Positions 23,538-23,679 of a stretch of 64,000 nt of DNA are shown piece by piece. Made by a program: the position numbers and the translations under genes. Under the pieces are notes generated by a model. It was given only the letters and a program-made list of their open reading frames with translations, was not told the DNA's origin and ran no database searches. The stretch's first letter is position 1, and each line of letters begins with the position of its first letter. The DNA comes from a virus (Duplodnaviria; Caudoviricetes): positions 1-64,000 of the IMG/VR virus record IMGVR_UViG_3300014059_000006. The stretch is one strand, 5' to 3'.

Positions 23538-23624
23538 GTGCAAAACAAAAATATAAATATGGTTGCGGGGATTAAAAATATATGGAATGGCAGAGATGCG
23601 CTCCATAGGGACTTTATTATGTAA
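23538..23624 (+). CDS. attenuator leader peptide 2 ((M)QNKNINMVAGIKNIWNGRDALHRDFIM)
   Basis: GTG 23538 or ATG 23559 start; its 3' end contains TAGGGACTTT, identical to the terminator 3' arm. Confidence 0.8.
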   Translation: MQNKNINMVAGIKNIWNGRDALHRDFIM

Positions 23625-23646
23625 TTTTAAGAAATTAAAAACAAAT

Positions 23647-23679
23647 AAAAAGTCCCTACCAAAAATAGGGACTTTTTTT
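23647..23679 (+). terminator. attenuator terminator 2
   Basis: AAAAAGTCCCTA CCAAAAA TAGGGACTTTTTTT. Confidence 0.92.

What the first reader, a model, noticed from the sequence alone, without database searches (positions are those of the whole stretch)
23538..23679. Attenuator 2 predicts tRNAs that are missing from this array
The leader carries TAGGGACTTT (23606-23615), an exact copy of the terminator 3' arm and so a perfect 10-bp antiterminator. Its upstream codons include A, D, K, N (tRNAs present) but also I, M, V, G, W and R(AGA), exactly the isotypes not supplied by operons 1 and 3. Inference: operon 2 once held, or in relatives holds, Ile, Met, Val, Gly, Trp and Arg(TCT) tRNAs that were deleted here.
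Basis: partly seen in the sequence, partly recalled or inferred. Interest (0 to 1): 0.85.

Follow-up and report, generated by a model that had tools for sequence, protein, structure and literature searches.

The report
Leader records deleted phage tRNA genes
A short test gene ahead of a crAss-like phage's second tRNA block still spells out the codons of six tRNAs this phage has lost by a small deletion; relatives with the same leader carry exactly those tRNAs, which supports the idea that such leaders gauge tRNA supply.

Summary
TAGGGACTTT occurs at 23606-23615 and 23666-23675, and its complement at 23649-23658. It lies inside the last codons of a 21-codon ORF (23559-23624) that follows a Bacteroidota-type promoter.

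Codons 2-14 use only Val, Ala, Gly, Ile, Lys, Asn, Trp, Arg(AGA) and Asp. This phage keeps only Ala, Asp, a broken Lys and Asn downstream.

Three relatives were fetched with a homologous leader 2 (L017 at 93% PhoH identity, L011 at 66%, L005 at 57%). A fourth contig, L016, lacks the leader end. All four carry Trp, Arg(TCT), Ile(GAT), Met, Gly, usually Val, and Ile(TAT) between Lys and Asn, which are exactly the predicted isotypes.

The loss is visible in the window. The gene at 24342-24420 is a chimera of a Lys 5' part and the 3' end of the tRNA that precedes Asn. The two parts join in the T-loop, and the acceptor strands cannot pair. Independent contigs from two samples reproduce the junction.

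Terminator arms and antiterminator strand change together between relatives. Leaders 1 and 3 match their own tRNA sets down to the codon box. Ribosome-mediated attenuation is therefore the best mechanism, but it is inferred, not shown.

This scan has noted the same kind of leader in other phages. I found no published account.

The parts
23485..23516 (+). Promoter P2 of Bacteroidota type (TTTG at 23485-23488, TAnnTTTG at 23509-23516)
   Evidence: Read directly. The same two-box layout precedes leaders 1 and 3 and the nuclease genes, and precedes leader 2 in L005, L011 and L017. Function is inferred.
23559..23624 (+). Leader ORF 2, 21 codons plus TAA. An in-frame GTG at 23538 would add 7 codons.
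   Evidence: Homologous ORFs are in L017 5151-5216, L005 7171-7248 and L011 135-224.
23562..23600 (+). Sensor codons 2-14: Val Ala Gly Ile(ATT) Lys Asn Ile(ATA) Trp Asn Gly Arg(AGA) Asp Ala
   Evidence: This is a run of 13 residues all within the operon 2 isotype set of relatives. The next best among 296 short ORFs of the window is 9. Codons are listed.
23606..23615 (+). Antiterminator strand, an exact copy of the terminator 3' arm. It ends 6 nt before the stop codon.
23649..23679 (+). Intrinsic terminator: 5' arm 23649-23658, loop, 3' arm 23666-23675, T run to 23679
   Evidence: flags the hairpin only on the minus strand, because its stem absorbs part of the T run.
23681..23751 (+). tRNA-Ala(TGC), sub-threshold, with G3-U70 and a bulged acceptor stem
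   Evidence: Rfam 26 bits against a cut-off of 29. Not called by ARAGORN. Fold.
23758..23834 (+). tRNA-Asp(GTC), the replacement copy that travels with the LAGLIDADG gene
23881..24315 (+). LAGLIDADG-type homing endonuclease gene with its own promoter (23841-23880)
   Evidence: ORF. The family was assigned by reading the LAGLIDADG-like motif near the N-terminus, not by a profile search. A related contig in run X4 joins 23685 to 24315 with 127 other letters between, so it lacks this insert.
24316..24337 (+). Orphan 3' end of the older tRNA-Asp
   Evidence: Near-identical to the 3' end of the tRNA-Asp of L005 7387-7461 and of L011 302-375.
24342..24420 (+). Chimeric pseudo-tRNA that marks the deletion junction. 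tRNA-Lys(TTT) 5' part runs to the T-loop. The T-loop and 3' acceptor strand come from the tRNA that precedes Asn. The junction is at about 24407/24408, inside a 16-nt stretch shared by both T-arms (24392-24407).
   Evidence: Alignment A1. The window's 24392-24418 is identical to the matching stretch of L017, about 7124-7150. A contig of run X3 is identical over 24332-24407 and then continues with the proper Lys 3' acceptor strand. No acceptor stem forms, whereas L011's Lys with the same 5' strand folds as a cloverleaf.
24424..24496 (+). tRNA-Asn(GTT), last gene of operon 2
   Evidence: It is also the last tRNA of operon 2 in L005, L011, L016 and L017.

Best explanation
Region 23538-23679 is the transcribed leader of the second of three tRNA operons of a crAss-like phage.

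Layout (shown). A Bacteroidota-type promoter is followed by a short ORF, and two nucleotides after the terminator's T run the first tRNA begins. The first 14 codons of the ORF name the isotypes of the operon. The last codons contain a strand that can pair with the 5' arm of the intrinsic terminator.

Proposed working (inferred, classical leader-peptide attenuation).
- If the listed codons are decoded quickly, the ribosome reaches the stop codon and covers the antiterminator strand. The terminator then forms and transcription stops.
- If any listed codon is decoded slowly because its tRNA is scarce, the ribosome lags and the antiterminator forms. RNA polymerase then reads into the tRNA genes.
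- The operon would thus be under supply-and-demand feedback.

The deletion (shown). In this phage, recombination between the near-identical T-arms of tRNA-Lys and of the tRNA preceding Asn removed the genes between them. These were Trp, Arg(TCT), Ile(GAT), Met, Gly(TCC), Val(TAC) and most of the Ile(TAT)-like gene. The deleted stretch measures about 0.5 kb in the nuclease-free relative L011 and about 1.6 kb in L017. A dead Lys/pre-Asn chimera is left behind. The leader has not been re-tuned and still lists the ancestral set.
For: 1. Repeat and fold.

2. Relatives with the homologous leader carry the predicted tRNAs in the predicted place: L017, L005, L011, L016.

3. The nearest full-array relative, L017, has a 93% identical PhoH. 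Its leader 2 differs from the window's in the sensor part by only one synonymous change and a Lys/Asn order swap.

4. Deletion scar.

5. The junction is not an assembly artefact. A 13.7-kb Logan contig of the source sample and an 887-nt contig of a second sample both span it with 0 differences.

6. Three-way compensatory change. The antiterminator strand, 5' arm and 3' arm are different words in the window, L017, L005 and L011, yet still pair. Duplex energies beat 500 shuffles in 0, 0, 0 and 5 cases respectively.

7. In all 13 leaders, from six phage lineages, the antiterminator strand ends 0-14 nt before the stop codon.

8. The codon-set rule holds for the sister leaders. Runs of own-set residues are 15-17 for leader 1 (8 of 8 isotypes) and 7-11 for leader 3 (3 of 3). 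Each window leader is the top outlier among 296 short ORFs.

9. Codon-box precision:
- Arg is CGN in leader 1, where the tRNA anticodon is ACG, but AGA in every leader 2, where it is TCT.
- ATA and ATT are both present in every leader 2, matching Ile(TAT) and Ile(GAT).
- Both Leu boxes and both Ser boxes are present in leader 3.

10. The order of residues shuffles between relatives while the set is kept. This argues for selection on codon content, not on a peptide.
Against: - No expression data exist. Translation of the ORF, stalling and conditional read-through are all untested.
- The match between leader and genes is not perfect. L011 lacks tRNA-Ala and tRNA-Val although its leader has one codon of each. 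L005's leader 2 starts with Tyr and Leu codons, and the L017 and L001 leader 1 include one AGA codon.
- Antiterminator pairing of window leader 1 is no better than shuffles because the region is G-rich, and it is weak in the leader 3 group.
- No Rfam leader family reaches threshold.
- The record is estimated to be 88% complete, so a tRNA in the unseen part cannot be excluded.
- Only six lineages were available, and all come from one crAss-like clade.
Confidence: 0.8

Rival explanations
1. The short ORF is not translated. The region is a promoter-proximal structured RNA or a small RNA gene ending in a constitutive terminator. tRNA transcription would come from leaky read-through or a protein factor, and the codon match would be incidental.
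For: There is no direct evidence of translation. The leader folds well as RNA, with z = -3.8. A conserved tail motif after the antiterminator strand keeps its sequence in window leader 3 although the reading frame there differs, which hints at RNA-level constraint.
Against: The ORF is open in all 13 leaders. Its amino-acid set follows the downstream tRNA set at codon-box level, and residue order shuffles while the set is kept. No known RNA family matches. The antiterminator strand always sits just before the stop codon, a position that matters only if a ribosome is there.
Confidence: 0.12
2. The short array is ancestral, and relatives gained Trp, Arg, Ile, Met, Gly and Val tRNAs by insertion.
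For: tRNA blocks in this clade are clearly mobile: homing-endonuclease cassettes carry tRNA copies.
Against: The window holds a chimeric gene whose two acceptor strands cannot pair. Its 3' end is identical to the pre-Asn tRNA of L017. A near-identical contig in another study has the intact Lys 3' end. The same gene order occurs in relatives from 57% to 93% PhoH identity, which bracket the window.
Confidence: 0.02
3. The junction is a misassembly across repeated T-loop sequence, and the real phage has the full array.
For: The repeat at the junction is a conserved tRNA T-arm, a classic place for assembly graphs to collapse. Contigs of run X3 break there.
Against: The shared stretch is only 16 nt. 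Logan's independent assembly of the source run spans 23000-25000 in one 13.7-kb contig with no difference. A second sample gives an 887-nt contig across the junction, also identical.
Confidence: 0.03
4. The six tRNAs were moved rather than lost, and lie in the roughly 12% of the genome that is missing from the record.
For: CheckV completeness is 88% and the record is linear without end repeats.
Against: In every relative the three operons are contiguous. The 108-kb record has no tRNA outside 12967-27768. The chimera shows that these copies at least were deleted.
Confidence: 0.03

Closest known systems
Multivalent leader-peptide transcription attenuators of enterobacterial amino-acid operons (thrL sensing Thr and Ile; ilvL of ilvGMEDA sensing Ile, Val and Leu; also trpL, hisL, pheL, leuL). 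Named from established knowledge.
   Same: - A promoter-proximal short ORF rich in regulatory codons, an intrinsic terminator, and a mutually exclusive antiterminator.
- The antiterminator's upstream strand is masked by a ribosome that finishes the ORF.
- Possibly a further upstream pairing partner, seen in the folds.
- Several amino acids are sensed by one leader.
   Different: - The regulated genes are tRNAs, not biosynthetic enzymes. The useful signal would be tRNA supply rather than amino-acid supply.
- The leader samples up to ten isotypes, about once or twice each, instead of runs of one to three.
- It distinguishes codon boxes of one amino acid.
- It is phage-encoded and sits behind a Bacteroidota-type promoter.
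- No Rfam leader model reaches threshold. The best is Phe_leader at 24-27 bits against 55 in L017.
Leader-peptide attenuators ahead of phage tRNA operons noted earlier in this scan on other genomes (e1-371813, e1-5618024, e1-5714076 and others). These are unpublished AI notes.
   Same: The same layout and the same codon-to-tRNA matching.
   Different: - Those are giant or lake phages, whereas this is a crAss-like phage of about 108 kb from wastewater.
- Here the rule was used to predict lost genes, and the prediction was checked in relatives.
- I did not test any sequence relationship to those cases.
Stress-induced long tRNA array (trn operon) of Anabaena sp. PCC 7120 (PMC8421152, PMC10272220)
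   Same: An accessory tRNA array that is kept off and switched on when translation is impaired.
   Different: The abstract of PMC10272220 attributes control to a protein repressor, TrcR. Neither paper mentions an attenuator, leader or terminator.
T-box riboswitches
   Same: Transcription attenuation that responds to tRNA status through a terminator/antiterminator choice.
   Different: T-boxes bind uncharged tRNA directly and have no leader ORF. No T-box match was found in the window region or in L017.
Homing-endonuclease-driven turnover of phage tRNA regions (T4 SegB; cited in PMC8421152)
   Same: Free-standing nuclease genes lie inside the tRNA array, together with broken and replaced tRNA genes.
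   Different: The deletion here joins two T-arms at a 16-nt repeat and has no nuclease gene at the junction. A link to nuclease cutting is only a guess.

Membership tests
Ribosome-mediated (leader-peptide) transcription attenuator | A short ORF directly after the promoter, enriched in codons related to the regulated genes | tested here: met
   Run of 13 own-set residues, against a next best of 9 among 296 short ORFs. Codons.
Ribosome-mediated (leader-peptide) transcription attenuator | An intrinsic terminator between the ORF and the regulated genes | tested here: met
   Hairpin 23649-23675 plus T run, with the first tRNA 2 nt later.
Ribosome-mediated (leader-peptide) transcription attenuator | An alternative antiterminator whose upstream strand is covered by a ribosome at the end of the ORF | tested here: met
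   10-bp perfect pairing, 0 of 500 shuffles as good. The strand ends 6 nt before the stop codon.
Ribosome-mediated (leader-peptide) transcription attenuator | Structure and ORF kept in relatives through compensatory change | tested here: met
   Four leader 2 versions use different words for all three strands and still pair. There were too few sequences for a formal covariation statistic.
Ribosome-mediated (leader-peptide) transcription attenuator | The ORF is translated, and read-through rises when its codons are decoded slowly | not testable with these tools
   No RNA or ribosome data. Only DNA runs were searched, so whether RNA runs hold it is unknown.
Rfam amino-acid operon leaders (Trp, His, Thr, Leu, Phe leader) | Match to the covariance model at gathering score | tested here: not met
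   No hit in the window at E up to 1. Phe_leader scores 24.5-26.7 bits against 55 on the L017 leaders.
T-box riboswitch | Match to the T-box model (specifier loop and T-box sequence) | tested here: not met
   No hit.
Functional tRNA-Lys | A seven-pair acceptor stem and a full match to the tRNA model | tested here: not met
   Rfam matches model positions 8-63 only. ARAGORN gives no call. No acceptor pairing appears in the fold.
Crassvirales (crAss-like phages) | crAss-type major capsid protein and gene order | tested here: inconclusive
   The precomputed Pfam family Crass_capsid is on the syntenic gene of the 91% PhoH relative L001. The window's own capsid gene was not scanned.

The most novel reading that the evidence does not exclude
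Phage tRNA operons are run by multivalent leader-peptide attenuators that test, codon box by codon box, how fast the cell decodes each codon family served by the tRNAs downstream. Each tRNA block would then be made on demand, for example when host tRNAs are scarce or are cut by a defence nuclease. Because the leader changes more slowly than the gene array, it also serves as a record from which lost tRNA genes can be predicted, as was done successfully here.
Probability: 0.6. Interest if true: 0.85.

Novelty: new variant of a known kind. Interest (0 to 1): 0.78.

Why it matters
Leader-peptide attenuation is a textbook mechanism, but I found no paper applying it to tRNA genes or to crAss-like phages.

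If it works as proposed, phages regulate accessory tRNAs by direct feedback from decoding speed. That bears on why phages carry tRNAs at all, whether for codon-usage matching or to replace host tRNAs destroyed by defence systems.

This case adds something the other sightings in the scan lack. A prediction was made from the leader alone: six named isotypes, including the second Arg isoacceptor. It was then confirmed in independently assembled relatives, and the deletion scar was found.

It also shows how quickly these arrays erode:
- The window lost seven genes.
- L001 lost leader 2 and most of operons 2 and 3.
- L011 lost Ala and Val.

Tried and rejected
Searches for relatives that gave nothing useful:
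- GenBank phage records by blastn: only nuclease and tRNA fragments, no relative.
- IMG/VR scans with PhoH, with the 146-aa neighbour protein, and with exact stretches of tRNA-Asn and tRNA-Pro: no relative.
- A T-arm pattern pulled four unrelated phages (L012-L015). Their tRNA blocks show no such leaders by eye.
- More distant PhoH relatives have no comparable array: L004, L006-L010, L022, L023, L025.
- L021 has tRNAs abutting genes without leaders.

Methods that fell short:
- The sigma-70 consensus scan is not informative for these promoters. It lists the terminator on the minus strand only, for a technical reason.
- The first automatic arm picking failed for L005 leader 1 and window leader 3. 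It was redone.
It was rewritten to read coordinates.
- Runs X3 and X4 hold only parts of the stretch, so the full undeleted allele of the nearest strain could not be read.

Full report
**What the window is.** The window is the first 64 kb of a 107,908-bp IMG/VR virus record, estimated to be 88% complete. It has low G+C. A close relative carries a gene with the Pfam Crass_capsid family in synteny. The two-box motif of Bacteroidota promoters (TTTG, then TAnnTTTG about 20 nt later) recurs in front of genes and tRNA blocks. Runs that hold the DNA are wastewater and sludge metagenomes.

Between 20.9 and 25.8 kb lie three tRNA blocks. They are interrupted by homing-endonuclease genes and tRNA fragments.

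**The observation.**
- TAGGGACTTT is present at 23606-23615 and 23666-23675, with its complement at 23649-23658. That is three hits where 0.21 are expected.
- The second and third copies form a hairpin that runs into a T tract ending at 23679. tRNA-Ala starts at 23681.
- The first copy can pair with the 5' arm over ten perfect base pairs at -14.4 kcal/mol. None of 500 dinucleotide shuffles of the ORF's 3' part did as well.
- That copy lies in codons 16-19 of a 21-codon ORF, 23559-23624. It ends 6 nt before the stop codon.
- After the start codon the ORF reads Val, Ala, Gly, Ile(ATT), Lys, Asn, Ile(ATA), Trp, Asn, Gly, Arg(AGA), Asp, Ala.
- The tRNA genes found in the window and in the whole record are as follows:
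  - Block 1: Glu, Pro, Cys, Phe, Thr, Arg(ACG), Gln, His.
  - Block 2: Ala, Asp, a Lys-like gene, Asn.
  - Block 3: two Leu, two Ser, Tyr.
  - Elsewhere: a Pro on the other strand and a CTA suppressor.
- No gene for Ile, Met, Val, Gly, Trp or Arg(TCT) exists in the record.

**Relatives.** GenBank phages and IMG/VR gave no relative. Homologues of the neighbouring PhoH gene and of the 146-aa gene just upstream of the leader did lead to metagenome contigs of the same clade.

| Locus | PhoH identity | Operon 2 |
|---|---|---|
| L017 | 93% | Ala, Asp, Lys, Trp, Arg(TCT), Ile(GAT), Met, a Gly gene split by an HNH cassette, Val, an Ile(TAT)-like gene split by a PD-(D/E)XK gene, Asn |
| L005 | 57% | Ala, Asp, Lys, an HNH gene, Trp, Arg(TCT), Ile(GAT), Met, Gly, Val, Ile(TAT), Asn |
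| L011 | 66% | A compact nuclease-free version: Asp, Lys, Trp, Arg(TCT), Ile(GAT), Met, Gly, Ile(TAT), Asn |
| L016 | not measured | The contig starts inside the block: Trp, Arg(TCT), a split Ile, Met, Gly, Val, a pre-Asn tRNA, Asn |

- L017, L005 and L011 each have a homologous leader 2 in front of the block.
- L017's sensor part differs from the window's by one synonymous change and a swap of the Lys and Asn codons.
Nothing unrelated sits there.
- The stated refutation condition is not met.

**The scar.** The Lys-like gene at 24342-24420 is a chimera.
- Its 5' acceptor strand and body are those of tRNA-Lys. L011's Lys has the same 5' strand and folds as a clean cloverleaf.
- From the T-arm onward it is identical to the 3' end of the tRNA that precedes Asn in L017.
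- The two acceptor strands cannot pair. Rfam matches only model positions 8-63 and ARAGORN is silent.
- A contig from an unrelated 2025 study (X3) is identical to the window over 24332-24407. It then continues with a strand that pairs with the Lys 5' acceptor strand.
- This places the junction at 24407/24408, at the end of a 16-nt stretch that both T-arms share.
- The junction is not an artefact of the IMG/VR assembly. Logan's own assembly of the source run covers 23000-25000 in one 13.7-kb contig without a difference, and a second sample of the same study yields an identical 887-nt contig across it.
- The parsimonious reading is a recent deletion by recombination between the two T-arms. It removed about 0.5 kb measured on L011 and about 1.6 kb measured on L017.
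- A contig of run X4 carries a near-identical leader. Its two single-base insertions fall in the spacer and in the terminator loop. It lacks the LAGLIDADG insert, so that insertion is also recent.

**Is the leader an attenuator?** The comparative evidence is strong but indirect.

(a) Thirteen leaders from six lineages all have an open short frame.

(b) Each frame contains a long run of residues from its own block's isotype set:

| Leader | Run of own-set residues | Isotypes covered | Next best run for that set among the window's 296 short ORFs |
|---|---|---|---|
| 1 | 15-17 | 8 of 8 | 7 |
| 2 | 13-15 | 9 or 10 of 10 | 9 |
| 3 | 7-11 | 3 of 3 | 6 |

(c) The match reaches codon boxes. Arg is CGN in leader 1 and AGA in every leader 2. 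Every leader 2 has both ATA and ATT. Leader 3 samples both Leu boxes and both Ser boxes.

(d) Residue order differs between relatives while the set is kept. This fits selection on codon content.

(e) The three interacting strands are different words in the window, L017, L005 and L011, yet the pairing is kept.

(f) The antiterminator strand always ends 0-14 nt before the stop codon. There a terminating ribosome would cover it.

(g) The minimum-energy folds also pair the tail of the ORF with an upstream segment. That could be the fourth element of a trp-like design. I did not test its conservation.

From this I infer classical ribosome-mediated attenuation with tRNA supply as the signal.

What is missing is any evidence of translation, stalling or conditional read-through. 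The fit is also imperfect:
- L011 has lost Ala and Val tRNAs but keeps one codon of each.
- L005's leader 2 begins with Tyr and Leu.
- The pairing in window leader 1 and in the leader 3 group is weak against shuffles.

**Known systems.** The working resembles multivalent enterobacterial leaders such as thrL and ilvL (my knowledge of those systems). No Rfam leader or T-box model reaches threshold.

Full-text searches found no paper on leader-peptide control of tRNA operons or on such leaders in crAss-like phages. The nearest published system is the stress-induced trn array of Anabaena. The abstract of PMC10272220 names a repressor, and neither paper mentions an attenuator or leader.

The scan's own notebook holds several earlier sightings of the same kind of leader in giant and lake phages. 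The general idea is therefore not new to this scan. Those notes are unchecked AI notes and were not used as evidence.

**Verdict.**
- The inference that operon 2 once held, and in relatives holds, Ile, Met, Val, Gly, Trp and Arg(TCT) tRNAs is supported. I put it at about 0.9.
- The attenuator mechanism is the best explanation, at about 0.6-0.65.
- In kind it is a new variant of leader-peptide attenuation.

Noticed in passing
window 21089-21762, 21851-22455, 25107-25786: Three HNH nuclease cassettes each split an older tRNA gene (Glu, Cys, Tyr) and bring an intact replacement copy of the same isotype. The old halves keep complementary acceptor strands.
   Followed up: partly
window 27643-28095; L016 5937-6011 (minus strand): A CTA-anticodon suppressor tRNA behind its own promoter lies directly before a small gene with an early in-frame TAG. 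The same pair is present in L016.
   Followed up: no
L001 3100-3830: In L001 (91% PhoH relative) promoter P2 and the first bases of the leader remain. The leader ORF and nearly all of operons 2 and 3 are gone, leaving a tRNA 3' fragment, Ile(GAT) and an HNH gene.
   Followed up: partly
L011 135-300: L011's leader 2 contains one Ala and one Val codon, but the block has no tRNA-Ala and no tRNA-Val. This is a second case of a leader outlasting its genes, or else a limit of the rule.
   Followed up: partly
L016 6359-6439 (minus strand); L017 6555-6580 and 7095-7155: The tRNA before Asn has an unusual build. Rfam scores it 29.6 bits, ARAGORN is silent, a TAT-like anticodon loop sits very close to the acceptor stem, and a long extra arm follows. 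In L017 it is split by a PD-(D/E)XK gene with a replacement tRNA beside it.
   Followed up: no
L005 8466-8563; L016 7655-7580 (minus strand): A structured element of about 90 nt with a long inverted repeat sits between tRNA-Trp and tRNA-Arg(TCT) in two relatives. No Rfam match.
   Followed up: no
window 23616-23624 and 24606-24615; L005 7240-7248 and 13557-13565: A conserved 9-nt tail (A-Y-TATGT-R-A) follows the antiterminator strand in leaders 2 and 3. In window leader 3 it lies after the stop codon in another frame, so it may be kept for RNA pairing with upstream sensor codons.
   Followed up: partly
window 23681-23751: tRNA-Ala keeps G3-U70, but its acceptor stem needs a one-base bulge and it scores under Rfam's threshold. 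It may be impaired.
   Followed up: partly
L017 3430-3552 and 5196-5277: Weak sub-threshold Rfam hits to the phenylalanine leader family fall on leaders 1 and 2 (26.7 and 24.5 bits against a cut-off of 55).
   Followed up: no
window 23647-23677: The leader 2 terminator is symmetrical, with an A tract before and a T tract after, so it could also stop transcription coming from the other strand.
   Followed up: no
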